Assembly (NCBI GenBank): GCA_031549365.1 | Contig: JAVBPX010000001.1 | Span: 130,417 to 194,416 of the forward strand | Source of the DNA: Alphaproteobacteria bacterium | GTDB taxonomy: Bacteria > Pseudomonadota > Alphaproteobacteria > Rs-D84 | Direction: 5' to 3' | DNA: 64,000 nucleotides | Part shown: piece by piece, positions 17,366 to 27,790 of the stretch | Numbering within the stretch: the first letter of the stretch is position 1 | Layout of the letters: each line of letters starts with the position of its first letter | Notes under the pieces: generated by a model | The model's database searches: none | What the model was told of the DNA's origin: nothing | The model's input: the letters and a program-made list of their open reading frames with translations, nothing else | Program-made: the position numbers and the translations under genes

Positions 17366-17457
17366 GGAGAGGTGGCAGAGCCCGGTTGAATGCGCTCGAC
17401 TCGAAATCGAGTATACTGGCGACAGTATCGGGGGTTCGAATCCCCCCCTCTCCGCCA
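17366..17457 (+). tRNA. tRNA-Ser (anticodon CGA)
   Basis: Cloverleaf with acceptor GGAGAGG/CCTCTCC, long variable arm, anticodon stem ctcga/tcgag, loop 'ctCGAaa', T-loop GGTTCGAATCC. Discriminator G and CCA are encoded. Confidence 0.9.
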
Positions 17458-17535: not shown

Positions 17536-17672
17536 GATGCGATTTTAAGGTTATTGCAATGGTATGTGATTTAATATGTGAAAATACGGCGATATTTTGA
17601 TGTTTACATACAATGCCCGTTTTTGGCAGTGCACTGTTCATTGGTGCGAGGAAATTTTAAGGGAGTTTATTA

Positions 17673-17701
17673 TTGACTTTTTTGATGATTTGTGGTATAA
17701 T
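17673..17701 (+). promoter_or_regulatory. Consensus sigma70 promoter: -35 TTGACT, 17-bp spacer, extended -10 TGgTATAAT
   Basis: 'TTGACT tttttgatgatttgtgg TATAAT' at 17673-17701. Both hexamers match consensus perfectly with optimal spacing and a TG extension. Confidence 0.55.
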
Positions 17702-17714
17702 GCAGAGTATATTA

Positions 17715-17776
17715 GGACGGATTTTATCCGTCTTTTTTAATTTTAGTCCCGCTATTTTTGGCGGGGCTTTTTTTTA
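17715..17776 (+). terminator. Two tandem intrinsic-terminator hairpins in the leader (possible sRNA or attenuator)
   Basis: Hairpin 1 is 'gacgg attttat ccgtc' followed by T6. Hairpin 2 is 'gtcccgc tatttttg gcggggc' followed by T9. Both lie between the consensus promoter and the SD 'aagggag' of the ORF at 17795. Confidence 0.5.
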
Positions 17777-17794
17777 TATTTTTAAGGGAGTAAT

Positions 17795-18574
17795 ATGAAA
17801 AATAATTTTTTTAACGAACAATCTTTAAATTCTGATATTAAAACTCAGATTATCTTAGCTACATTTAAACTTTGGCTTCAAGACAATAAAAAGGAACAAA
17901 ATCTATCTTATATTGATCTATTTTCAGGGCCTGGCATATATGATGATGGAACATTATCTACACCGATATGTATTTTACAGGAAATTTGCAATAATAAGAG
18001 AATGGCACAGAGATTCAATGTGATCTTAAATGATTATAATGCAGAATTTATTGCAAAATTGCGTCGTATGATTTTGAATGTGAAAAATGCTAGGTTTATA
18101 AAAACTTTGGTTACTTCGATTGGTAATGCTGAAAGTTTTCAAAAGACCGTATCTAATAATGAACATATCTTCATGTTAATTGATCCTTGGGGATGGAAGG
18201 GTATAAATAGAAATTATATTAATAATATGTTATTAAATAAGGACTGTGATATTGCGGTGATGTTTAATTTTAATCAGTTTAATCGGTTTATGAATTTTGA
18301 TATCGCAGATGAATTGTTTAATGATTTGTTTGATAAAAAAACTTTGCACGAAATACGTAAATTTTGTAGCACAAATCCAAAATCGGAAAGAGAACAATTC
18401 GTGATAGATAAATTTGTGAAAATGGTTTGTAAAAATTGTGAAAATTGTAATTACACGCCATTTAAATTTAAGATGGAAAAATCGACGCGTACAAGCCATT
18501 ATATTATTTTTATAATTCGTGATAAAGATAGATTTCAAGCAACGAAAACTTTGTTAAATCAATACTTGGCTTGA
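17795..18574 (+). CDS. Hypothetical protein, candidate three-Cys-motif partner protein (TcmP-like) with a methyltransferase-like 'DLFSGPG' motif
   Basis: 259 aa. Good SD 'aagggag' 7 nt upstream. 'YIDLFSGPGIY' resembles SAM-MTase motif I and 'IDPWGWKG' is a possible motif-IV-like element. Directly upstream of a Gp37/Gp68 (DUF5131) gene. Confidence 0.5.
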   Translation: MKNNFFNEQSLNSDIKTQIILATFKLWLQDNKKEQNLSYIDLFSGPGIYDDGTLSTPICILQEICNNKRMAQRFNVILNDYNAEFIAKLRRMILNVKNARFIKTLVTSIGNAESFQKTVSNNEHIFMLIDPWGWKGINRNYINNMLLNKDCDIAVMFNFNQFNRFMNFDIADELFNDLFDKKTLHEIRKFCSTNPKSEREQFVIDKFVKMVCKNCENCNYTPFKFKMEKSTRTSHYIIFIIRDKDRFQATKTLLNQYLA

Positions 18575-18605
18575 AAAATAATATCGTTTCTGGCATAATG
18601 TGAAT

Positions 18606-19340
18606 ATGGCAGAAAAATCTAAACTTGAATGGACGGATGCAACGTGGAACCCAGTTGTTGGATGTACAAAGTACAGCGATGGGTGTATAAATTGTTATGC
18701 AAAACCAATTGCAGAACGTTTGTGTAGACAAGGAGTTTTTGGATACGAAAATGGTTTTAAAATGACATTGCGTCCAGAGCGTTTGGAAATTCCATTGCAT
18801 TGGAAAAAACCAAGATTAATATTTGTAGACTCCATGTGCGATTTATTTCACGATGATGTGCCATTAGAATATATTCAGAAAGTTTTTGCAATAATGAAGC
18901 GTGCAGATTGGCATGTTTATACCATATTAACAAAACGATCAAAGCGTTTGCGTGAATTGGCGTCAAACCTTGAATGGATGCCGCATGTTGTAATGGGTGT
19001 AACGATTGAATCCGATAAATATCGTGATAGGCTGGATGATTTGAAGGCTGTGCCTGCATATATGCGATATTTATCATTGGAGCCATTGTTGGGACCAATT
19101 AACCGATTGGATTTGGATGGAATTGATTGGGTTATTGCTGGTGGAGAATCCGGACCAAATGCACGGCAACTGGATACAAATTGGGTCAGAGAAATTCGCG
19201 ATTGGACATTGGAACAAAAAGCTGCGTTTTGGTTTAAACAGTATAGCGAGTATGGGGGACAGCATAAAGACCCTATTTTAGATGGGGAAAAATATAAGCA
19301 ATTTCCAGATTTTAAAACCGGAAAACCGAGTCTGTTTTAA
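18606..19340 (+). CDS. Phage Gp37/Gp68-family protein (DUF5131, three-Cys-motif protein)
   Basis: N-terminal 'KLEWTDATWNPVVGCTKYSDGCINCYA' matches the hallmark family start, a Cx6CxxC three-Cys motif right after 'WNP..GC'. The ATG at 18606 is preferred over the GTG at 18600. Confidence 0.6.
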   Translation: MAEKSKLEWTDATWNPVVGCTKYSDGCINCYAKPIAERLCRQGVFGYENGFKMTLRPERLEIPLHWKKPRLIFVDSMCDLFHDDVPLEYIQKVFAIMKRADWHVYTILTKRSKRLRELASNLEWMPHVVMGVTIESDKYRDRLDDLKAVPAYMRYLSLEPLLGPINRLDLDGIDWVIAGGESGPNARQLDTNWVREIRDWTLEQKAAFWFKQYSEYGGQHKDPILDGEKYKQFPDFKTGKPSLF

Positions 19341-19859
19341 TGGCAATGATTTATACAATCGGTTTTAGTGGAAAAACAGCGGACATTTTTACGGATGTTC
19401 TGGATGCTGTTGGTGTCAAAAAATTGATTGATATTCGTTTATGGCGGGCGTCACGATTTGTTCCATGGGCATCGGGTGCAAATTTGCAGAAACTTTTGGG
19501 TGACAAATATTGTTATATGCCGGAATTGACACCAACAAAATGAAGAAATTATTAAAAAGATAAATTATCGTCTGGGTACAAATGCGGATAAAATAAAACT
19601 CATTGAAAAAAACTATAATCGTCCGAATATTGAAGAATATTTGCAAATGTTTTCAAAAAACATGGATGGAGTAGATGAGACCAGAATTGCCCACTTTTAT
19701 TTGAAATATTGCGATTTCAAACATTCCAATGTACTGACGTGTTTAGAAGGACAAATACTTGATTTTCAGGTTGAACGCGTTATTACAGTAATGGTTATGC
19801 TTGTTACATATTTGAGTATGGCAAAATTAGAGCCCTATGTACATCCTGTCGGTATTTAA
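19340..19859 (+). pseudogene. DUF488 (YeaO-like) gene disrupted by a frameshift near 19525-19545
   Basis: ORF 19340-19543 encodes the DUF488 N-terminus ('MIYTIGFSGKT...LIDIRLWRASR...PELTPTK*'). The continuation is in another frame from about 19530 to 19859 ('EEIIKKINYRLG...LQMFSKNMDG...'). Confidence 0.5.
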
Positions 19860-19971
19860 ATATCAATTATCCAGTAGGAAAATACTATTATGGATCAATG
19901 CTGTTAGTGAGACTTTCTTGACTTTTTAACATTATAATAGTAGCATCCTTTGTGAGAAAAATGAGGTTTAA

Positions 19972-21564
19972 ATGTCGGATAACAATGCCATTCATTGGGC
20001 GGATTTTATTGCAGAGCGAATAATTCGTGAAAAAGGCGATAAAGATTTATATACTTTGGCCAGCGGAATTACCCCGTCTGGGACAATTCATATTGGAAAA
20101 TTTCGCGAGATTATAACCACCGAATTGGTGTCCCGGGCGTTGGTTCGCATGGGGAAAAAGGTACGTTTTATTTATTCTTGGGATGATTATGATACTTTTC
20201 GCAAAGTGCCGGGCGATATGCCACAGCAAGAGATGTTAAAAGAATTATTGTATCAGCCGATTGTCGATATTCCAGATGTTTACGGAACAGAAAGTTCTTA
20301 TGCTCGGCATAACGAAGTGTCGTTGGAACGTATTGCTCCGGTATTGGGCATAACAAATATTGAATTTATTTATCAAAGTCGGATGTATCGTAGTGGCGAA
20401 TATAATGATTTGATTATAAAGGTTATGGATTCGCGAGATAAAATTCGTGATATTTTACAGACATCTAAAAGCCAGGGGATGGATGAAGAGTTTTATCCTA
20501 TTGCAACTTATTGCAGCAATTGCAATCGTGACCGAATTGTTTTTTCAAATTATAATACATCAGATAAAACAGTTGATTATAAGTGTAAGTTATGCAACCA
20601 CACGGAAAAGTTAAATTTACGCGATTCAAGGCGGCTGAAATTGCCTTGGCGAATTGATTGGCCAATGCGTTGGGCATTTGAAAATGTTGATTTTGAACCA
20701 GGTGGGACAGATCATTCTTCGGCTGGGGGCAGTTTTGATACCAGCAAAGTAATCGTTAGTGAGATTTTTGGAGGGGCGTCTCCGGTTTATGCAAAATATG
20801 CATTTGTATTGCCAAAGGGTGAAAGCAAAAAGATGTCTTCGTCAATTGGTAACGGGTTTTCTGTGGAAAGCGTTTTGCAGGTTTATGAACCAGAAATGAT
20901 ACGTTGGTTTTTTGCTTCGTATAAACCAGATGCGCAGTTCAGTATGGCTTTTGACATTGATGTTTTGAAGAATTACGAAGCATTTGACCGAATGGAACGC
21001 GTGGTTTATGGATTGGAAGATGTGAATGATGACAGGCGTGCAGTGCAGCGGCGTATTTATGAAATGTCTCAGATAAATTTTGATGGAAAGATTCCGGAAC
21101 AGATGCCTTTTCAGCCGAGTTTTAGGCACCTGTGTAATCAGTTGCAAATAAACGAATTTGATATCGAAAAAACCAGAGCATATTACGCCCACCAAATCAA
21201 AAATGACATCGATGAACAACGGTATCAAGAAAGGTCCAAATGCGCAGTATTTTGGATACAAAATTGTGCTTCGGATGATTTCAAACTTATATTGAATTCC
21301 GAAAAACGCAATGACATGACATTGTCGACAGATGAAAAAAAGTTCGTGAATGACTTGCACAAAATGTTGGAGATTGATTGGGACAATTTAGATGACGAAC
21401 GCGTCTTACAAAGTAAGGTCGGTGAATTAATTAAGGCCAACGGATTGGAAGTACTAAATGCGTATAAACTGTTATATCAGTTACTGGTCAATCGGGACCA
21501 AGGACCAAAGCTGGCCGGATTTATTTTGGGTATTGGCAAGGATAAGATTCTGAATTTGTTGTAA
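19972..21564 (+). CDS. lysK: Lysyl-tRNA synthetase, class I
   Basis: 530 aa. HIGH-type motif 'PSGTIHIGKFRE' and KMSKS-type motif 'KMSSSIGNG'. Architecture is typical of class I LysRS as found in alphaproteobacteria and archaea. Confidence 0.85.
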   Translation: MSDNNAIHWADFIAERIIREKGDKDLYTLASGITPSGTIHIGKFREIITTELVSRALVRMGKKVRFIYSWDDYDTFRKVPGDMPQQEMLKELLYQPIVDIPDVYGTESSYARHNEVSLERIAPVLGITNIEFIYQSRMYRSGEYNDLIIKVMDSRDKIRDILQTSKSQGMDEEFYPIATYCSNCNRDRIVFSNYNTSDKTVDYKCKLCNHTEKLNLRDSRRLKLPWRIDWPMRWAFENVDFEPGGTDHSSAGGSFDTSKVIVSEIFGGASPVYAKYAFVLPKGESKKMSSSIGNGFSVESVLQVYEPEMIRWFFASYKPDAQFSMAFDIDVLKNYEAFDRMERVVYGLEDVNDDRRAVQRRIYEMSQINFDGKIPEQMPFQPSFRHLCNQLQINEFDIEKTRAYYAHQIKNDIDEQRYQERSKCAVFWIQNCASDDFKLILNSEKRNDMTLSTDEKKFVNDLHKMLEIDWDNLDDERVLQSKVGELIKANGLEVLNAYKLLYQLLVNRDQGPKLAGFILGIGKDKILNLL

Positions 21565-21568
21565 TTCA

Positions 21569-22333
21569 TTACCTTTCTTGTATGTGCTTTCCCATAATGC
21601 ACTGGCGAGCGATGATTTTTTTGATGTTACTGCCGACAAGTTGCGATGTTAGAGGGCAATGATAGCTTTTTTTGAAATTTTCAGTGCATTGTTGTAAAGT
21701 TTCTGTAAAATTTGGTTTATAAAATTTTCCAATTTCTATACCCACAGGGGTGTTTTCAAGATTTCCCTTTGCTATTTCGTTATCAAAATTTTGTTTTGTA
21801 GTCGCAATTATATGTTTATTATCAGTGGTATGCAAGTGTGGTTCAGCCCTCTCCCATTGCGGTTGTGTAGATACAAATTTATCGGCCTCTTGCTTGTATG
21901 TTGAGTGTAATAGTGGACTATCTTTTAGTATTATTTTAGGTAAGTGCAACACCCATAAAATAATTCGAGCATATTGAAATTGCGATAATATGCAATCAGT
22001 TAATACGCATGAAGAACTCATAATTGACGGTAGAGAATCTTTAATGTTATTTGCAATGTATATGAGATCTGAAAGGCATTCTTTGTCTAGGCAAAATCCA
22101 AGGTGGTCAAAATCCTTTTGAAGGTCGTAATGCAGTTTCTTCATGTATTCAAGAAATTTTTTTTCTTGTTCGTGGTTGGATTTTTTTAGTAATATAAAAG
22201 TGTCAACATCTGAATTTGTTTTATCTTCACCTCGAGCAGTTGAGCCACATATAAATGAAAACTCTAGATTGTCTCCGAATATCTCTCGGGTATCTAAGTC
22301 CAATTGTTTTATCTGTTTTTTTGTTATTTTCAT
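21569..22333 (-). CDS. Pol-beta-superfamily nucleotidyltransferase domain protein (ANT/MNT-like), function unknown
   Basis: 254 aa. N-terminal NTase signature 'FICGSTARGEDKTNSDVDTFILL' (G[GS]x9-13Dx[DE]). The extreme C-terminus has an Rx6H element ('ARQCIMGKH') reminiscent of HEPN. Codon usage differs from core genes. Confidence 0.6.
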   Translation of the reverse strand: MKITKKQIKQLDLDTREIFGDNLEFSFICGSTARGEDKTNSDVDTFILLKKSNHEQEKKFLEYMKKLHYDLQKDFDHLGFCLDKECLSDLIYIANNIKDSLPSIMSSSCVLTDCILSQFQYARIILWVLHLPKIILKDSPLLHSTYKQEADKFVSTQPQWERAEPHLHTTDNKHIIATTKQNFDNEIAKGNLENTPVGIEIGKFYKPNFTETLQQCTENFKKSYHCPLTSQLVGSNIKKIIARQCIMGKHIQER

Positions 22334-22355
22334 TATTATTTACCAGTTGCTGTTT

Positions 22356-23813
22356 TTATAAGTATCTTACGATTTCTCTCTGAGGTAGAATTGGTTGTGG
22401 AGTAAATATGCCTTTGTAATAGATTCCAGATGCATGCTTTCCTATACCGCCATATGGTTTGTATCCATGCTCGAAATTGTGTAGATGGTCATTCACAAGT
22501 ATAGAGTCCGGCATATGGATTTTTTCATCATAAAGTATGGCTATTGTTTCTTCTTTTAATTTTCCATAAACTGTCAAAAACATAGCTGATTCTTTATATT
22601 TTGTATTTTTGAAATAGTTTATAAGTTCATTTTCTGAATCATAAGGTTGTATAAAGAATATTGGACAGAACAATTCTTCGTAATTAGCTCCTTCAGAGAG
22701 ATCCTTTACTATTACCGTAGGATATATCATATTTTTTGAAGCGTCTATAAGACCTCCATAATAAATATTCTTCCGATTGTTATAAATTAGTTTTGCAGCA
22801 TTTAATGCGTATCCATCTTTTGTATTAGGCATTATTATCGTGGATTTTTCAGGATTTGAATTACAGTTTTCATGAATTTCTTTTAATTTATTTATTAAAA
22901 TTTCTTGAAAATCTGTTAAACAATCTCTTTTCACAAGTAATGCATTTGGGGCGGCACAGTCTTGTCCTTGGTTGTATGTTCCAAGCTCGATACATGCTTC
23001 GACGGCTTCTTTGATATTTGACCGAAGATTTATTATAACCGGGTTTTGTCCAGCACCACCAAAGAAACAATATAACTCTTTGTTATACGATCTTTTTACT
23101 TTCTTCATGTTTTCATATGTACCTGTAAATATAAATGCCTTTATTTCATTTCGTGTAATATTGAGAAAATCCTCTCTTCCTCCATAGAATATTTCTATAT
23201 TTGGCATACTTGATAAATTTAACAATTTATCTAGCTCTTTAAAAACGTCTTGAGAATCATTTGGATATCTAACATATACTTTCTTACAAATATACGATGG
23301 AACAAGAGCAAAACAAACAAAGGAATACAGCAATTGGTTTAAAGGCATAAATGACGCGATTGGTGCTTTCTCTTTTAAAAAGTATTCCTTATTTATGGTA
23401 AGATTTGTAAGAAGGTCTATTGATCTATCAATTTCATCACATATTGTATTATAGGTGGCATATGATGAAAGAGCTTTATAGATATCTTCTCTGCGCTGAT
23501 TTAATTGAAACGAAAAATTGAGCGCGTCTGTTAAAATTTTATCAAAGTCTAGATTATTTTCCACGTCTTTTTTAGAAATATTTGTTCTTTGTCCAAACCA
23601 AGAGCCAATTTCCTTTTTACTGAGTTTCTCTGTTTTTACTATAAGCCCTAAGTCATTTTTTTCATACTCCAGGCTGAGATTGTTAATATTGTGGAGTATA
23701 TTATCTTTAGCTTTTGTATCCATCTCATCAAATTTGAGGATAAAAGTCAGCCCATTTTTATCTTGTAAAATGGTTCCAATAGGCTGTTTCTTTTTCCTTA
23801 CTATGAAGTCCAT
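22356..23813 (-). CDS. Divergent aldehyde dehydrogenase superfamily protein (catalytic Cys kept, general-base Glu replaced)
   Basis: 485 aa. ALDH motifs present: 'FTGTYENMKKV' (NAD-binding F-T-G-S-T-like), 'NQGQDCAAPNALLVKRD' (Cys motif F-x-N-x-GQ-x-C), 'EELFCPI' (EEIFGPV-like). The 'ELGGKSP' position reads 'FFGGAGQNP', so the Glu is absent. Confidence 0.6.
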   Translation of the reverse strand: MDFIVRKKKQPIGTILQDKNGLTFILKFDEMDTKAKDNILHNINNLSLEYEKNDLGLIVKTEKLSKKEIGSWFGQRTNISKKDVENNLDFDKILTDALNFSFQLNQRREDIYKALSSYATYNTICDEIDRSIDLLTNLTINKEYFLKEKAPIASFMPLNQLLYSFVCFALVPSYICKKVYVRYPNDSQDVFKELDKLLNLSSMPNIEIFYGGREDFLNITRNEIKAFIFTGTYENMKKVKRSYNKELYCFFGGAGQNPVIINLRSNIKEAVEACIELGTYNQGQDCAAPNALLVKRDCLTDFQEILINKLKEIHENCNSNPEKSTIIMPNTKDGYALNAAKLIYNNRKNIYYGGLIDASKNMIYPTVIVKDLSEGANYEELFCPIFFIQPYDSENELINYFKNTKYKESAMFLTVYGKLKEETIAILYDEKIHMPDSILVNDHLHNFEHGYKPYGGIGKHASGIYYKGIFTPQPILPQREIVRYL

Positions 23814-23844
23814 ATTTTCTCCTTGATTAATGTGGACCTTAAGT

Positions 23845-25344
23845 TTATCTCAACTTTATTTTTTTTAACATGGGAAATGTTAAAACATCTCTGATATTAG
23901 ATGAGTTTGTTAACATCATGGCGAGGCGATCTGCACCTATTCCCATGCCTCCTGTAGGGGGCATACCGTATTCTAAAGCTGTAAGAAAGGCTTCATCCAT
24001 TTGCATTGCTTCAGGATCATCTGAAAGAGATGCTTGTTCTTCGAATTTTTTTCTTTGATCTATTGGATTTGATAATTCTGAGTAAGCTTCACCAAATTCA
24101 ATGCCGCCAACATAGAGCATAAATCTTTCAGAAAGACGTGGGTTTTGTCGATGTATTTTTGTCAGCGGAGATATATCATATGGAACATCCATTACGAAAG
24201 TTGGTTGAATAAGAGTTTTTTCGACTTTTTCTTCAAATATAGTTTCTACTACTTTACCCCAAGATTCAGTTCCCTTGAGTCGAATTTTGTGTTTTTGGGC
24301 AATGCTATGAATTTCCCTATCGCTCATGTTTATAAGATCTTCGTTCAGCGCTTCTGATGCTGCGTCTACCATTGGTAATCTTTTAAATGGTTTTTCAAGG
24401 TCTATTAAGGCATCTTTCCAAGTAATGTGGAGAGAGCTGTTGACAGCCATAGATGAATCTCGCAGCAATCTTTCTGCGAGAATCATCATGTCAAAATAGT
24501 CTTTATAAGAGCCATATATATCTAGCATTGTGAATTCTGGACTGTGGCGATTATCAATACCTTCATTGCGGAAATTTTTACCAATTTCAAACACTCGAGG
24601 AATGCCTCCAACAATGAGCCGCTTTAGTTCAAGTTCAGATGCTATCCTGAGATAAAAATCGTCTTTAAGAGAATTATAATGTGTAGTAAATGGAGCAGCA
24701 TTTGCACCGGCTTTTACTGGGTGAAGTATAGGTGTTTCTACCTCTATATATCCCTCATCGTGCATTACTTCGCGTATAGCATACATTGCTTTCGCCCTAT
24801 TGAGAACAACATCCCGAGAGTTTTTGTTTACTATAAGATCTACGGATTTATTGCGGTATCTTTCTTCGGAGTCTGTTAGACCGTGGTATTTTTCAGGAAG
24901 AATATTCAATGATTTTGACAGCATTGTTACTTCCAGAGGAGTAACAGAAACTGCTCCTCGCAAAGTTTTTTTAATTCCTCCCAAAACACCAATTATATCA
25001 CCAATGTCAAGATTTTTAAGCATGTTATTAAATTGTGTATCTGCTTTTGGATTTTCATTGCAAATTTGAATTTTTCCGGATTCATCTTCAACATCGATGA
25101 ACATTCCGGAATTTCGGATTGCCATAATTCTTCCTGCAATTTTTACAATGTCTTTTGTATCCGCTGTCTTTTCACCAGGTTGAAGGTGGCCAAATTCAGC
25201 TATTATATTACTGGCAAGATGCGTTGGTTTGTATATGTGTGGATATGCGTTTATTCCTTGAGATTCGATGTCTTTAAGTTTTTGAATCCTTATTTCTTTT
25301 AAAGAATTTATTGGTGTCTTATTATCTTTTTTTTGATTTTGCAT
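23845..25344 (-). CDS. lysS: Lysyl-tRNA synthetase, class II (full length, with N-terminal anticodon-binding OB fold)
   Basis: 499 aa. Class II motif 1 'RVFEIGKNFRNEG', motif 2 'HSPEFTMLDIY', motif 3 'GGMGIGADRLAMMLT'. N-terminal OB-fold region 'KIAGRIMAIRNSGMFIDVEDESGKIQICNE'. AGA/AGG/GGA/ACA-rich codon usage unlike neighbouring core genes. Confidence 0.85.
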   Translation of the reverse strand: MQNQKKDNKTPINSLKEIRIQKLKDIESQGINAYPHIYKPTHLASNIIAEFGHLQPGEKTADTKDIVKIAGRIMAIRNSGMFIDVEDESGKIQICNENPKADTQFNNMLKNLDIGDIIGVLGGIKKTLRGAVSVTPLEVTMLSKSLNILPEKYHGLTDSEERYRNKSVDLIVNKNSRDVVLNRAKAMYAIREVMHDEGYIEVETPILHPVKAGANAAPFTTHYNSLKDDFYLRIASELELKRLIVGGIPRVFEIGKNFRNEGIDNRHSPEFTMLDIYGSYKDYFDMMILAERLLRDSSMAVNSSLHITWKDALIDLEKPFKRLPMVDAASEALNEDLINMSDREIHSIAQKHKIRLKGTESWGKVVETIFEEKVEKTLIQPTFVMDVPYDISPLTKIHRQNPRLSERFMLYVGGIEFGEAYSELSNPIDQRKKFEEQASLSDDPEAMQMDEAFLTALEYGMPPTGGMGIGADRLAMMLTNSSNIRDVLTFPMLKKIKLR

Positions 25345-25366
25345 AGATATACCTTTTTATACTTTT

Positions 25367-25439
25367 TGGGGGGCGGTCCGGATTTGAACCGTACCTCTGA
25401 GGGAAAACTCAGCGTTCTGCCTAATTATACTACCCGCCC
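25367..25439 (-). tRNA. Aberrant tRNA-like element (degenerate cloverleaf, 6-nt anticodon loop TTTTCC). Either a pseudo-tRNA or a non-canonical tRNA.
   Basis: Minus-strand sequence GGGCGGGTAGTATAATTAGGCAGAACGCTGAGTTTTCCCTCAGAGGTACGGTTCAAATCCGGACCGCCCCCCA. Canonical T-loop GGTTCAAATCC. Acceptor 6/7 pairs. 3' C-CCA encoded. Anticodon stem CTGAG/CTCAG with only 6 loop nt. D-stem and T-stem each carry a mismatch. Confidence 0.4.
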
Positions 25440-25522
25440 TATAATTGTGATGAAGTGATCCCATCAACTTATCATTGTTTATGTCAAAAGCAATTTAAAT
25501 GTCAATAATTATTTTTTGTTAT

Positions 25523-26644
25523 TTATTTGTTATTTAATATAATTAATGGCACTTGCATTTCGGATGCTGTCCCGCCTGCATGTTCAGATGCTGGTGAGCC
25601 AAACTCTTCCCAAGCTTTTTGATTTTGATGCAATGATTTGTTTCCTATTCCAATTGCGACATAGTCCCCGATTGATTCATCTTCCAGCACTCTATTCTTG
25701 GCAGAATACCAGTGAAGGTAGTTTGTTTTAAAAGTTTCCTTATTGATCAGCAAAAAATCTTTCTCCGAAAATATTTCATAAAATATTCTTTCAAAGCTAT
25801 TTTTAGCCTCTGGTTTTACGAAAAATTGTGTACAACGCGCCTCACATGAAATCGGCATTATCAGAGTGTCAGCAATACCCGTAAAATCTTCGATAAATAA
25901 GGGCAAAGTATCAATATGACCGTGATCAGCAGTTATGATGAATAATGTATCTGGGCAATTATTTTGCAAATTTATTATTGCATCTCGTATATTGCAGATA
26001 CAATTTCTGGCTTCGCCAGACAAAATTCCGTGATCATGGTTAGTGCTATCTGGCTCCGGCCAATACGCGTATATGTAATTTTTATTGGCATTTTTTGTAT
26101 TTGCTATTTTTTCAATAGTTGAACACCATTTCTCAACTGTATTATGCTCTGGTGTAATAAACTGAGGCATAACCTCAAAAGCGCTCCATTCGGAAATATC
26201 ATTGATTTGGTCAACAAGTAATGCTGGCATTTTTTCCAACGGAGGCTTCGTAAGATGAGATGATTCACCACTATAAAAGTCACAATTAGTAAAATTTTCG
26301 ACAATCTCTCCAGATTCTTTATAATATTGCGACCATCCCAATAACCCATGTGATACAGGCAACAGCCCCGTGCGCAAAGTTGTTGTGGCGGCAACCGTAG
26401 TAGAAGGAACTATTGTATCAATAGTATCATATTTGTTTTTATAAAAATAGTCTGTCACAGAATCGCTTAATACATCCAGCTGTTCTGTCCCCATTCCGTC
26501 TAGGACTATAAGAGCTATGTTTTTGTACACTTCCGATGACCACGAATTTATGATCATTGGATGCGACTCATAATTTGGACATAGTCCAACAATTTTTTGT
26601 ATTGCAGATGTTATTGATGTTATATCGTATTTCATGAGGTACAT
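25523..26644 (-). CDS. Alkaline-phosphatase-superfamily protein (type I phosphodiesterase / nucleotide pyrophosphatase-like)
   Basis: 'IALIVLDGMGTEQLDV' metal-site region and 'FIITADHGHID' match the AlkP/NPP family. Start placed at the first ATG ('MYLMKYD'). The ORF track extends to a TTG at 26671. Confidence 0.7.
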   Translation of the reverse strand: MYLMKYDITSITSAIQKIVGLCPNYESHPMIINSWSSEVYKNIALIVLDGMGTEQLDVLSDSVTDYFYKNKYDTIDTIVPSTTVAATTTLRTGLLPVSHGLLGWSQYYKESGEIVENFTNCDFYSGESSHLTKPPLEKMPALLVDQINDISEWSAFEVMPQFITPEHNTVEKWCSTIEKIANTKNANKNYIYAYWPEPDSTNHDHGILSGEARNCICNIRDAIINLQNNCPDTLFIITADHGHIDTLPLFIEDFTGIADTLIMPISCEARCTQFFVKPEAKNSFERIFYEIFSEKDFLLINKETFKTNYLHWYSAKNRVLEDESIGDYVAIGIGNKSLHQNQKAWEEFGSPASEHAGGTASEMQVPLIILNNK

Positions 26645-27298
26645 ATTAGCAATGACATATCTTGAAGTCAACCGCGTATTTGGTTGAAAGTTGAGCGGAA
26701 TTCTAGTTTCGTGGGAATATTGGTTGTTTTTATGTTTTGGTAATGAATTTTCATTGTTATTTAAAATAAATTCCCTGTTAGGGTTTTAGGGAATTTGGGG
26801 TGATGTGGGTAGTGGATGCCGCGGTGTGGTTGGGGTTGTGAATTTGGGACCAATTGGTAAAATGCGATTTTAGGGGCAAAACCACAAAATTTCCCTGTAA
26901 ATTCCCTGATGTTGTTTGTGTGATTAATTTTGCTGTGTGGAATCGCGTAACCTTGCGATGCACACATCAATTCCGTGCTAATAACGCACGTCATTGTGTG
27001 TTTATATGCTCGGTTTCCCTGATAATCGGTTGGATGTTGGTGGGGTGTTGGATTATTCGGGGAAATAATCGGGATAAGTGATTTATGAGGTGTTTATCAT
27101 GTTTAGTATGCTCTACACCAATAACATTTACACCTCCGCCAGAATTGGCCGTTTTATTTTTATCCGCGCGCGGCCCCGAAAACTCGCGGCTTTACTTTTT
27201 ATTTTCACAGTGGTATGGTGATTTATATCAAAAATCTGCAGATTTGGTTCTCCTTACATACGATTACCATTTTTGCACTGTGAACTTTGGGGGCTGTT

Positions 27299-27790
27299 AT
27301 GACCGCAACAATACATTTAGTACATGGTTTTATTGGGTTTGGAAAAACTACGATTGCGAAAAGATTGGCGCATGAATTGCCTACGGTTATTCTGTCTGAT
27401 GATGAATTTATGGTAAAATTATATGGCAATAATCCTCCTGCTGATTTATTTCGTGATTATTATAATCGTATAGATAATTTAATTTGGAATTTAGCAAAAG
27501 AGATTGTAAAAACTGGCGCAGATGTAATTATTGATTCCGGTTTTTGGAGTAAAGAAAGTCGTGCAACTGCATATAATCGCGCAAAAAATATTACAAAAAA
27601 TGTAGTGTTTCACAACATTCAATGCAATATGGATATTGCCCGGCAACGAGCATTGGAACGGACAAAAATGAATTCCGGCGAATTGGCTGTGGATGAAAAT
27701 ACGTTTGATTTATTTAAAATTCAATTTCAACCAATTGATTCTGATGAAAATTATATAGTAATTAACCACGATAATAATATTAAAAAATGA
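27299..27790 (+). CDS. Small P-loop NTPase / predicted kinase (AAA_33 or zeta-toxin-like fold)
   Basis: 164 aa. Walker A 'HGFIGFGKTTIAKRL' near the N-terminus. Walker B-like 'DVIIDSGF'. Stop overlaps the tag start (ATGA). Confidence 0.6.
   Translation: MTATIHLVHGFIGFGKTTIAKRLAHELPTVILSDDEFMVKLYGNNPPADLFRDYYNRIDNLIWNLAKEIVKTGADVIIDSGFWSKESRATAYNRAKNITKNVVFHNIQCNMDIARQRALERTKMNSGELAVDENTFDLFKIQFQPIDSDENYIVINHDNNIKK

What the first reader, a model, noticed from the sequence alone, without database searches (positions are those of the whole stretch)
21569..22333. Stand-alone Pol-beta-type nucleotidyltransferase with a possible C-terminal HEPN-like Rx6H, first gene of the foreign cassette
Seen in sequence:
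- A canonical minimal-NTase signature 'GSTARGEDKTNSDVDTFILL' within the first 50 aa of a 254-aa protein.
- The last 10 residues contain 'RQCIMGKH', an R-x6-H spacing like the HEPN RNase motif.

Established knowledge says proteins of this size and signature include aminoglycoside and lincosamide nucleotidyltransferases, MNT-HEPN toxin-antitoxin fusions, and minimal CBASS/SMODS-like NTases.

Inference: the protein is either a resistance- or defence-type NTase, or an enzyme that nucleotidylates a small molecule or a tRNA/aaRS-related substrate alongside the adjacent LysRS-II.
Basis: partly seen in the sequence, partly recalled or inferred. Interest (0 to 1): 0.5.

Follow-up and report, generated by a model that had tools for sequence, protein, structure and literature searches.

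The report
Cysteine-rich nucleotidyltransferase in a lysyl-tRNA cassette
The gene is a real nucleotide-transferring enzyme of a rare, unstudied family that sits in many bacteria beside a spare tRNA-charging enzyme and an enzyme likely to reduce the charged amino acid, which points to an undescribed tRNA-dependent pathway and not to a toxin-antitoxin or resistance gene.

Summary
The 254-aa ORF at 21569-22333 (-) is real. It carries a true Pol-beta nucleotidyltransferase (NTase) core: G30-S31 and D42-x-D44, Pfam NTP_transf_2 and Polbeta above threshold.

The HEPN reading fails. In 41 family members R243 and H250 are each kept in 3 of 41, whereas the enclosed Q244-C245 is invariant. No HEPN fold, Pfam hit or partner gene was found.

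The protein belongs to a rare family: about 45 full-length representatives among 1.84 billion. The family has three invariant Cys, a fourth Cys in 37 of 41, and two invariant His, so a metal site is likely. The confident model (pLDDT 91.7) is closest, weakly, to small-molecule NTases (ANT(9), ANT(4'), LinB).

Family members nearly always follow a thioester-type aminoacyl-tRNA reductase gene and lie near a matching tRNA synthetase:
- In actinomycetes, Vibrio and metagenomes the partners are a glutamyl-tRNA reductase (GluTR)-like gene and GluRS.
- In this window they are an ALDH/LuxC-like gene with class II and class I LysRS and a tRNA-like gene.

Fusions link the ALDH-like protein to both NTases and class I LysRS. 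The closest NTase relative shares a homologous phosphodiesterase neighbour.

Best reading (inferred, not shown): the last enzyme of a tRNA-dependent lysine-reduction pathway, nucleotidylating the product. The chemistry is untested.

The parts
21569..22333 (-). NTase gene, 254 aa. Member of a rare Cys-rich family of Pol-beta-type nucleotidyltransferases.
   Evidence: ORF. Pfam NTP_transf_2, Polbeta and DUF294 core, residues 22-91. 80 relatives at E<1e-3 among 1.84 billion representatives, about 45 of them full length. Alignment A1. AF2 model pLDDT 91.7, pTM 0.89.
22193..22255 (-). Catalytic NTase signature, residues 27-47 (FICGSTARGEDKTNSDVDTFI): G30-S31 and D42-x-D44.
   Evidence: G30, S41, D42 and D44 are 41/41 and S31 is 40/41 in A1.
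21992..22009 (-). C109-x4-C114-x-L-S117 motif. Two of the invariant cysteines of the probable metal site.
   Evidence: C109, C114 and S117 are 41/41. H68 and H77 are also 41/41.
21584..21607 (-). RQCIMGKH, residues 243-250. Only Q244-C245 is conserved; the Rx6H spacing is incidental.
   Evidence: Q244 and C245 are 41/41. R243 is 3/41 and H250 is 3/41. C226-P227 (21653-21658) is 37/41.
22356..23813 (-). ALDH/LuxC-like protein, 485 aa. It keeps the catalytic Cys (NQGQDC286AAPN) and the oxyanion Asn, and has NGAG in place of the general-base Glu. Predicted thioester-forming reductase acting on activated lysine (Lys-tRNA or Lys-AMP).
   Evidence: Pfam Aldedh 7.7e-19 on the C-terminal half only. 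Family alignment A3 with invariant C286 and N159. Fusions to NTase and to class I LysRS.
23845..25344 (-). Class II lysyl-tRNA synthetase, full length, 499 aa.
   Evidence: NCBIfam NF001756 596 bits (cut-off 468), TIGR00499 541 bits. PDB LysRS matches up to 427 bits.
25368..25440 (-). tRNA-like gene with a 6-nt anticodon loop UUUUCC, a short T stem and an encoded CCA, 23 nt upstream of the LysRS-II start codon.
   Evidence: ARAGORN 'tRNA-???'. Rfam tRNA 28.6 bits against gathering 29, E=0.016. Sequence. Alignment to tRNA-Lys genes.
25523..26671 (-). Alkaline-phosphatase-superfamily phosphodiesterase (NPP/PglZ-like), 382 aa from the TTG start; 370 aa from 26635 in the public gene call. First gene of the minus-strand row.
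   Evidence: Pfam Phosphodiest 1.5e-12. 33% identical over full length, E=4e-52, to the gene immediately upstream of the closest NTase relative in L012.
19972..21564 (+). Class I lysyl-tRNA synthetase, full length, 530 aa. Convergent with the NTase; the stops are 4 nt apart.
   Evidence: TIGR00467 478 bits (cut-off 148), Pfam tRNA-synt_1f 2e-114. PDB 1irx 327 bits. Class I LysRS is fused to the ALDH-like family in many genomes.

Best explanation
The gene encodes an NTase of a rare, uncharacterised family. The family has a Pol-beta core plus a helical C-terminal half carrying three to four conserved Cys and two His, probably a metal site.

It is the last enzyme of a tRNA-dependent amino-acid reduction module. 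The proposed steps are:
1. LysRS (class II in the operon, class I next door) activates lysine onto tRNA-Lys or onto the cassette's own non-decoding tRNA-like carrier.
2. The ALDH/LuxC-like enzyme takes the lysyl group onto Cys286 as a thioester and reduces it with NAD(P)H to the alpha-amino aldehyde, possibly on to the alcohol. This is the chemistry glutamyl-tRNA reductase performs on Glu-tRNA.
3. The NTase transfers an NMP from an NTP to a hydroxyl of that reduced product, or of a close derivative. This would give a nucleotide-conjugated lysine derivative, for instance a lysinol-AMP-type mimic of lysyl-adenylate.
4. The AlkP-type phosphodiesterase processes or detoxifies the phosphodiester, and the extra LysRS copies supply substrate and/or self-resistance.

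Shown: NTase family membership, the conserved residues, the gene neighbourhoods and the fusions. Inferred: every chemical step, the substrate and the product.
For: (1) True NTase core.

(2) Genomic coupling.
- In three actinomycete plasmids and two actinomycete genomes, plus related metagenome contigs of unnamed origin, the family member follows a GluTR_N-like gene and a FAD oxidoreductase, precedes two radical-SAM genes, and faces a convergent GluRS.
- In Vibrio a GluTR_N-like gene overlaps the NTase start, and a divergent GluRS paralogue lies 2.4 kb upstream.
- L016 has GluTR-like - Pyr_redox - NTase - rSAM.
- L098 has GluTR-like - short NTase - convergent GluRS.
- The GluTR-like partners keep the catalytic TC[NQH]RxE cysteine motif and a Rossmann GxGxxA.

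(3) In the window a non-homologous but mechanistically analogous thioester enzyme, the ALDH/LuxC-like protein, occupies the GluTR-like position: Cys and Asn kept, general-base Glu lost. The synthetases are LysRS.

(4) Rosetta-stone fusions.
- ALDH-like + NTase in P0041, P0055, P0060, P0070, P0073 and in L078, L090, L092, L096.
- FAD oxidoreductase + this NTase family in P0014.
- Full class I LysRS + ALDH-like, about 960 aa, in Photorhabdus, Xenorhabdus, Pseudomonas, Brenneria and Saccharothrix. In 17 loci, mostly Xenorhabdus, Pseudomonas and Brenneria, an MFS transporter gene follows it.
- ALDH-like + LysRS-I C-terminal domain in Patescibacteria.

(5) A tRNA-Lys gene lies 26 nt before the ALDH-like gene in L020.

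(7) The closest relative, P0002, is paired with a homologous phosphodiesterase, with NUDIX and S66 hydrolase genes nearby.

(8) Aminoalkyl adenylates are established tight aaRS inhibitors (PMC4695845).
Against: - No biochemical data exist, and no paper on these cassettes was found.
- The window protein and P0002 have lost three residues that are near-invariant in the rest of the family: E80 to F (the probable third catalytic carboxylate, E in 35/41), R120 to Q and K121 to Y. Catalysis may be altered or lost.
- The NTases next to ALDH-like genes in other genomes share only the N-terminal domain. The Cys-rich half is otherwise seen with GluTR-like cassettes, so the window combination is unique.
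- In L012 the phosphodiesterase-NTase pair has no reductase or aaRS on the 7.7-kb contig.
- In 17 loci, mostly Xenorhabdus, Pseudomonas and Brenneria, the LysRS-I/ALDH-like fusion is followed by an MFS transporter and has no NTase. The NTase is therefore accessory.
- One of the two LysRS genes may simply be the housekeeping gene.
Confidence: 0.4

Rival explanations
1. Regulatory protein nucleotidyltransferase. The NTase AMPylates or UMPylates its partner enzyme (ALDH-like reductase or LysRS) to switch the pathway, and the AlkP-type phosphodiesterase removes the mark. This would be a writer/eraser pair, as in GlnE/glutamine synthetase or MntA/HepT.
Against: MntA model 21 bits against a cut-off of 60. 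The extra 160-aa helical, Cys-rich domain resembles the substrate-binding half of small-molecule ANTs, not MNTs. Fusion of a regulator to its target is unusual. No Tyr/Ser target motif is known.
Confidence: 0.2
2. RNA 3'-end nucleotidyltransferase acting on the tRNA-like RNA or on tRNA-Lys. It would repair, extend or block the acceptor end, in the manner of a CCA-adding enzyme or a MenT-type toxin, and so control which tRNA feeds the reductase.
For: A tRNA-like gene lies in the same operon. There are weak Pfam matches to the poly(A) polymerase palm (MTPAP-like_central 17 bits). The pathway is tRNA-centred.
Confidence: 0.12
3. Antibiotic-resistance NTase (aminoglycoside ANT or lincosamide Lnu type) that happens to lie beside tRNA synthetase genes.
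Against: NCBIfam ANT(9) scores 19.8 bits against 340, and ANT(4')-I 13.2 against 350. Sequence identity to the structures is 9-16%. The conserved Cys/His set is absent from ANTs. The recurrent synteny with aa-tRNA-reductase-like genes and aaRS across phyla is not a resistance context.
Confidence: 0.04
4. MNT-HEPN fusion or toxin-antitoxin or defence NTase, the first reader's HEPN idea. The C-terminal Rx6H would be an RNase site.
For: An R-x6-H string exists at residues 243-250. The PADLOC candidate PDC-S09 (minimal NTase) matches the N-domain, E=9.5e-10. A candidate defence pair, PDC-M30, lies 2 kb away.
Confidence: 0.02

Closest known systems
Small-molecule O-nucleotidyltransferases: ANT(9)/AAD(9), ANT(3'')(9) AadA, ANT(4') kanamycin NTase, LinB/Lnu
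   Different: 9-16% identity. NCBIfam scores are far below the cut-offs. The conserved Cys/His set and the Q-C motif have no counterpart. The genomic context is tRNA synthetase plus reductase, not resistance. In the window protein the usual third carboxylate position (E80) is Phe.
MntA/MNT minimal NTase antitoxins (type VII toxin-antitoxin, HEPN partner)
   Different: MNTs are about 100-140 aa and need an adjacent HEPN toxin. Here there is a 160-aa extra domain and no HEPN gene, and the MntA model scores 21 bits against a cut-off of 60.
Glutamyl-tRNA reductase (HemA) step of the C5 pathway. This is a system-level analogue, not a homologue of the NTase.
   Same: An aminoacyl-tRNA made by an aaRS is attacked by an active-site Cys and reduced to the alpha-amino aldehyde. 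Truncated HemA-like proteins with the TCxRxE motif are the usual upstream neighbours of this NTase family.
   Different: The C5 pathway hands the aldehyde to an aminomutase (HemL) and has no NTase. In the window the reductase is an unrelated ALDH/LuxC-type enzyme and the amino acid is lysine.
LuxC/LuxE fatty-acid reductase and CoA-acylating ALDHs
   Same: An ALDH-fold enzyme with catalytic Cys but no general-base Glu, which takes an acyl group from an adenylate-forming partner and releases an aldehyde. Several ALDH-like family members hit Pfam LuxC.
   Different: The partner here is a tRNA synthetase, fused in many genomes, not an acyl-protein synthetase. The substrate is an amino acid.
Bacillus cereus LysRS1 + LysRS2 charging the tRNA-like tRNA-Other, and M. 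barkeri LysRS1/2 with tRNA-Pyl
   Same: [quoted passage not shown]
   Different: Those systems have no ALDH-like reductase, NTase or phosphodiesterase. Whether the window's tRNA-like RNA is charged is untested.

Membership tests
Pol-beta-type nucleotidyltransferase superfamily (Pfam NTP_transf_2 / Polbeta) | hG[GS] motif and DxD metal-binding dyad on the core beta-sheet; profile score above the gathering cut-off | tested here: met
   G30-S31 and D42-x-D44. NTP_transf_2 31 bits (cut-off 21), Polbeta 28.8 (cut-off 26.9). Invariant in 41 homologues.
Pol-beta-type nucleotidyltransferase superfamily | Third acidic residue on the following beta-strand (catalytic base or second metal ligand) | tested here: not met
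   The family column is E in 35/41 and Q in 4/41. The window and P0002 have F80. D76 or D83 might substitute; this was not testable.
HEPN domain | Conserved Rx4-6H motif in a four-helix HEPN fold | tested here: not met
MNT-HEPN type VII toxin-antitoxin | Small MNT next to (or fused with) a HEPN toxin; MntA model above cut-off | tested here: not met
   The neighbours are the ALDH-like gene and class I LysRS. MntA scores 21.2 bits against 60.
Aminoglycoside/lincosamide NTases (ANT(9), ANT(4'), Lnu) | Family model above cut-off; resistance phenotype | tested here: not met
CD-NTase / SMODS (CBASS) and other defence NTases (Hailong HalB) | Cyclase model match and an adjacent effector gene | tested here: not met
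   PADLOC cyclase E=0.042. HalB scores 15.9 bits against 190. No effector gene is present.
CCA-adding / poly(A) polymerase RNA NTases | Palm plus RNA-binding domains; model above cut-off | tested here: not met
   MTPAP-like_central scores 17.1 against 27. No close structural match was found.
DUF294 / GlnE-like NTases | Full DUF294 domain, usually with CBS/cNMP domains, or GlnE architecture | tested here: inconclusive
   DUF294 scores 25.2 bits (cut-off 21) but covers only profile positions 50-106 of 138, the shared core. No CBS or cNMP domain is present.
New Cys-rich NTase family (alignment A1) | About 250-270 aa; invariant H68, H77, G79, C109, C114, S117, G198, Q244-C245; C226-P227 in 37/41; placed after an aa-tRNA-reductase-type gene and near an aaRS | tested here: met
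   All invariant residues are present. Profile E=1e-73 on the same gene in L001. The context is ALDH-like + LysRS. The protein deviates at E80, R120, K121 and W204.
ALDH superfamily, reductase (LuxC/CoA-acylating) type. This row tests the partner gene 22356-23813. | Catalytic Cys and oxyanion Asn present; general-base Glu absent | tested here: met
   C286 and N159 are invariant. NGAGHNP replaces ELGGKSP. The ELGGKSP comparison motif is from memory. Activity is not testable with these tools.

The most novel reading that the evidence does not exclude
The cassette would represent an unrecognised class of tRNA-dependent small-molecule pathways. A dedicated aaRS charges a tRNA, here perhaps a non-decoding tRNA-Lys-like carrier. 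An aminoacyl-tRNA reductase (ALDH/LuxC-type for Lys, truncated HemA-type for Glu) makes the amino aldehyde or alcohol. The Cys-rich NTase then adenylylates it to a natural aminoalkyl-adenylate, a built-in mimic of the aminoacyl-adenylate that poisons the cognate synthetase of competitors or phage-infected cells. The extra synthetase copies would give self-resistance and the phosphodiesterase immunity.
Probability: 0.18. Interest if true: 0.9.

Novelty: new variant of a known kind. Interest (0 to 1): 0.62.

Why it matters
If the inference holds, glutamyl-tRNA reductase is not a one-off. Aminoacyl-tRNA reduction would be a recurring biosynthetic entry step, invented at least twice (HemA-type for Glu, ALDH/LuxC-type for Lys), each time coupled to a dedicated synthetase and often to this NTase lineage.

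It would give a function to:
- hundreds of proteins currently named 'lysyl-tRNA synthetase class 1' or 'aldehyde dehydrogenase' in Patescibacteria, Photorhabdus, Xenorhabdus and Pseudomonas;
- the spare GluRS/LysRS copies on actinomycete plasmids.

It could also uncover a natural nucleotide-conjugated amino-acid analogue. All components are small soluble proteins, so the hypothesis can be tested directly in vitro.

Tried and rejected
- Single-sequence AF2 gave pLDDT 38.6 and was unusable. It was redone with alignment A1.
- The word-index search with the NTase alone found only itself.
- The search for related loci with A1 and A2 failed because no stretch was conserved enough.
- The metagenome scan with window + P0002 gave one weak locus. 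The IMG/VR scan and the phage tblastn gave none.
- The afdb50 fold library was unavailable.
- The lookup of P0134 was not on record.
- Organism identification failed. The genome is not among the GTDB representatives, and all window proteins are unnamed singletons.
- No att-type direct repeat of the tRNA-Ser end was found at the right edge of the low-GC block.
- The AAA_33 kinase at 27287-27790 is not homologous to the P-loop kinases beside the L010/L011 cassettes, so it was not counted as a part.
- My by-eye guess that P0060 and P0073 end in a GNAT domain got no Pfam support and is dropped.
- No tRNA-like elements were found in five other cassettes searched, and no tRNA genes in the actinomycete loci.
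- Eight literature searches found nothing on LysRS-ALDH fusions, GluTR-like + NTase cassettes or aminoacyl-tRNA reductases other than HemA. The Nat Chem 2026 tRNA-deacylase paper proved unrelated.
- The HEPN, MNT-TA, ANT/Lnu, CBASS and CCA-adding assignments were each tested and rejected (see membership tests).

Full report
**1. Observation**

The minus-strand ORF 21569-22333 encodes 254 aa beginning MKITKKQIKQ. Residues 30-49 read GSTARGEDKTNSDVDTFILL. Pfam places residues 22-91 in NTP_transf_2 (E=3.4e-7, 31 bits, cut-off 21) and Polbeta (28.8 bits, cut-off 26.9), and weakly in the shared core of DUF294. RQCIMGKH is at residues 243-250.

**2. A rare family, not an orphan**

The word-index search found only the protein itself. 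An exhaustive HMMER scan of 1.84 billion cluster representatives found 80 relatives at E<1e-3 and 39 at E<1e-10. About 45 of them are 240-280 aa and match end to end; the best is P0002 at 35% identity.

In a 41-sequence alignment (A1; column counts):
- Invariant residues are G30, S41, D42 and D44 (the NTase GS/DxD signature), together with H68, H77, G79, C109, C114, S117, G198, Q244 and C245.
- C226-P227 is present in 37 of 41.
- R120, K121, K133, P196 and W204 are nearly invariant.

Three invariant Cys, a fourth Cys in 37 of 41, and two invariant His suggest a structural or redox metal site. This is inference. The model coordinates could not be inspected.

**3. The HEPN idea fails**

- R243 is kept in 3 of 41 sequences and H250 in 3 of 41. 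What is conserved in RQCIMGKH is Q-C.
- With the alignment, AlphaFold gave a confident model (pLDDT 91.7, pTM 0.89).
- No HEPN gene is adjacent.
- NCBIfam scores for MntA, ANT(9), ANT(4')-I and HalB are 13-21 bits, against cut-offs of 60-350.

**4. Local anatomy**

On the minus strand, with gaps of 82, 23, 31 and 22 nt, the row is:
- an AlkP-superfamily phosphodiesterase, 25523-26671 (Pfam Phosphodiest 1.5e-12);
- a tRNA-like gene, 25368-25440;
- a full-length class II LysRS, 23845-25344 (596 bits);
- an ALDH-like protein, 22356-23813;
- the NTase.

A full-length class I LysRS (19972-21564, 478 bits on TIGR00467) converges on the NTase. Their stop codons are 4 nt apart.

The block 17619-27130 has 35.1% G+C, against 38.8% and 39.5% in the flanks. 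It starts after a tRNA-Ser gene and coincides exactly with a separate public contig, L001. It also holds a candidate defence pair, PDC-M30A/B, at 17795-19340. In the direction of transcription the NTase is the last gene, not the first.

**5. What travels with the NTase elsewhere**

- Actinomycetes: Kitasatospora and two Nocardia plasmids, Streptomyces tubercidicus and Saccharopolyspora, plus related metagenome contigs of unnamed origin (L007-L009). The order is a GlutR_N-like gene (about 300 aa), a FAD oxidoreductase, this NTase, two radical-SAM genes, then a convergent GluRS. The DNA is plasmid- or ICE-like.
- Vibrio chromosomes L014 and L015. A GlutR_N-like gene (Pfam 5.6e-9) overlaps the NTase start. 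A divergent GluRS paralogue lies upstream; it scores 274 bits, just under the gltX cut-off of 290.
- Metagenome contigs L016/L017. The order is GluTR-like, Pyr_redox, NTase, rSAM.
- Low-GC contig L098. The order is GluTR-like, a short NTase, then a convergent GluRS.

The GluTR-like proteins keep the HemA catalytic motif TC[NQH]RxE, the GE...Q substrate motif and a Rossmann GxGxxA. One protein, P0014, fuses the FAD oxidoreductase to this NTase family.

**6. The window's partner is an analogue, not a homologue, of GluTR**

The 485-aa ALDH-like protein keeps the ALDH catalytic Cys (NQGQDC286) and the oxyanion Asn159. It has NGAGHNP where hydrolytic ALDHs have the general-base Glu motif (the ELGGKSP comparison motif is from memory). 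This is the pattern of thioester-forming reductases such as LuxC, and several relatives hit Pfam LuxC.

Its family is tied to lysyl-tRNA metabolism by fusions:
- a full class I LysRS plus ALDH-like, about 940-985 aa, in Photorhabdus, Xenorhabdus, Pseudomonas, Brenneria and Saccharothrix. In 17 loci, mostly Xenorhabdus, Pseudomonas and Brenneria, it is followed by an MFS transporter;
- ALDH-like plus the C-terminal (tRNA-binding) part of class I LysRS, in about 600-aa Patescibacteria proteins that databases name 'lysyl-tRNA synthetase class 1'.

It is tied to NTases as well:
- ALDH-like + NTase fusions: P0041, P0055, P0060, P0070 and P0073, and L078, L090, L092 and L096;
- a separate NTase gene directly downstream in Cytophagales and Saccharibacteria.

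In Saccharibacteria contig L020 a tRNA-Lys(CUU) gene lies 26 nt before a 485-aa ALDH-like gene, next to a LysRS-II. That is the window's layout.

**7. Caveats on the coupling**

- The NTases next to ALDH-like genes elsewhere share only the N-terminal domain, about 90 residues. The Cys-rich C-terminal half is found with GluTR-like cassettes, in the window, and in L012.
- The window protein and its nearest relative P0002 differ from the rest of the family at E80 (F), R120 (Q), K121 (Y) and W204 (F). E80 is probably the third catalytic carboxylate.
- In L012, P0002 is preceded with a 1-nt gap by a phosphodiesterase 33% identical over its whole length to the window's (E=4e-52). NUDIX and S66 hydrolase genes lie downstream. 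No reductase or aaRS is on that 7.7-kb contig.
- In the window's own clade the constant partner is therefore the phosphodiesterase.

**8. Mechanism**

The best-supported reading is a tRNA-dependent reduction pathway.
1. LysRS loads lysine.
2. The ALDH/LuxC-like Cys takes it as a thioester, and NAD(P)H reduces it, as GluTR does with Glu-tRNA.
3. The NTase, whose fold is nearest to small-molecule O-nucleotidyltransferases and whose family is acidic to neutral (median pI 6.1), nucleotidylates the reduced product.

A concrete and attractive product would be an aminoalkyl adenylate. This is a classic tight-binding mimic of the aminoacyl-adenylate (PMC4695845). It would explain the spare synthetase genes as self-resistance or supply, and the phosphodiesterase, NUDIX and S66 genes as immunity or processing.

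All chemistry here is inference. The rivals are a protein-AMPylating regulator with the phosphodiesterase as eraser, and an RNA 3'-end NTase acting on the tRNA-like RNA. Neither is excluded.

**9. Known or new**

Eight full-text searches found no description of these cassettes or fusions. The only precedent for class I plus class II LysRS with an odd tRNA is B. cereus tRNA-Other and M. barkeri tRNA-Pyl (PMC2916919), and those systems have none of the other parts. The protein is a new, context-defined variant within the Pol-beta NTase superfamily. The system around it may be a new kind of pathway.

**10. Verdict**

The 'aaRS-related substrate' branch stands. The HEPN, resistance and CBASS branches are rejected.
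- Interest is moderately high because of the cross-phylum pairing of aaRS, aminoacyl-tRNA-reductase-type enzymes and this NTase lineage. It is tempered by the lack of any functional data and by the atypical active-site residues in the window's copy.

Noticed in passing
window 25368-25440 (-): tRNA-like gene with a 6-nt anticodon loop (UUUUCC), a 3-4 bp T stem, a G-A mismatch at the base of the acceptor stem and an encoded CCA. It lies 23 nt before the LysRS-II start. ARAGORN calls it 'tRNA-???', and Rfam tRNA gives 28.6 bits against a gathering score of 29. It could be a non-decoding lysine carrier or a tRNA-mimic leader that regulates lysS.
   Followed up: partly
window 19972-21564 (+) and 23845-25344 (-): Full-length class I and class II lysyl-tRNA synthetases lie 2.3 kb apart. 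LysRS-I has flank-like G+C (0.391). The ALDH-like gene (0.31) and the NTase (0.336) are much lower. Which LysRS is the housekeeping enzyme is unknown.
   Followed up: partly
window 17795-18574 (+) and 18600-19340 (+): This gene pair matches the PADLOC phage-defence candidate PDC-M30A (E=9e-15) and PDC-M30B/M41B (DUF5131, E about 1e-92-1e-94). It sits just after tRNA-Ser(CGA) at 17366-17457, and is followed by a 67-aa DUF488 fragment at 19340-19543.
   Followed up: no
L028-L050, L087, L089 (Photorhabdus, Xenorhabdus, Pseudomonas, Brenneria); L019-L027 (Saccharothrix, Kibdelosporangium, Crossiella and others): A fusion of about 940-985 aa joins a complete class I LysRS to the ALDH/LuxC-like domain. 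In 17 loci, mostly Xenorhabdus, Pseudomonas and Brenneria, it forms a two-gene unit with an MFS transporter. Apparently uncharacterised.
   Followed up: partly
L051-L097 (Patescibacteria/CPR); proteins P0136-P0193: Proteins of about 600-620 aa consist of the ALDH-like domain plus the C-terminal domain of class I LysRS. JGI and NCBI sources label them 'lysyl-tRNA synthetase class 1', although the catalytic LysRS domain is absent. They often lie a few kb from the class II lysS gene.
   Followed up: partly
L020 9855-9933 (+), Saccharibacteria MAG CAYQRB010000002.1: A 79-nt tRNA-Lys(CUU) gene lies 26 nt upstream of a 485-aa ALDH-like gene and beside a divergent 655-aa LysRS-II. This mirrors the window's layout.
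   Followed up: partly
L002-L009, L014-L017, L098: Truncated HemA-like proteins of about 300 aa have the catalytic Cys motif and a Rossmann domain but no dimerisation domain. They are encoded with a spare GluRS on actinomycete plasmids or ICEs, in Vibrio chromosomes and in metagenomes. NUDIX, GNAT, amidase and Abi genes are often nearby.
   Followed up: partly
window 26672-27286: A 600-nt non-coding, G/T-rich stretch lies at the right edge of the low-GC block, with a short repeat TAAATTCCCTG (26767 and 26898). The public contig L001 ends inside it, at 27130.
   Followed up: no
window 17695-17775 (+): Two strong terminator-like hairpins lie here, with sub-threshold Rfam sRNA matches (GcvB 27.6 bits, sX4 28.2 bits), between tRNA-Ser and the PDC-M30A gene. 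This may be a small RNA or just terminators.
   Followed up: no
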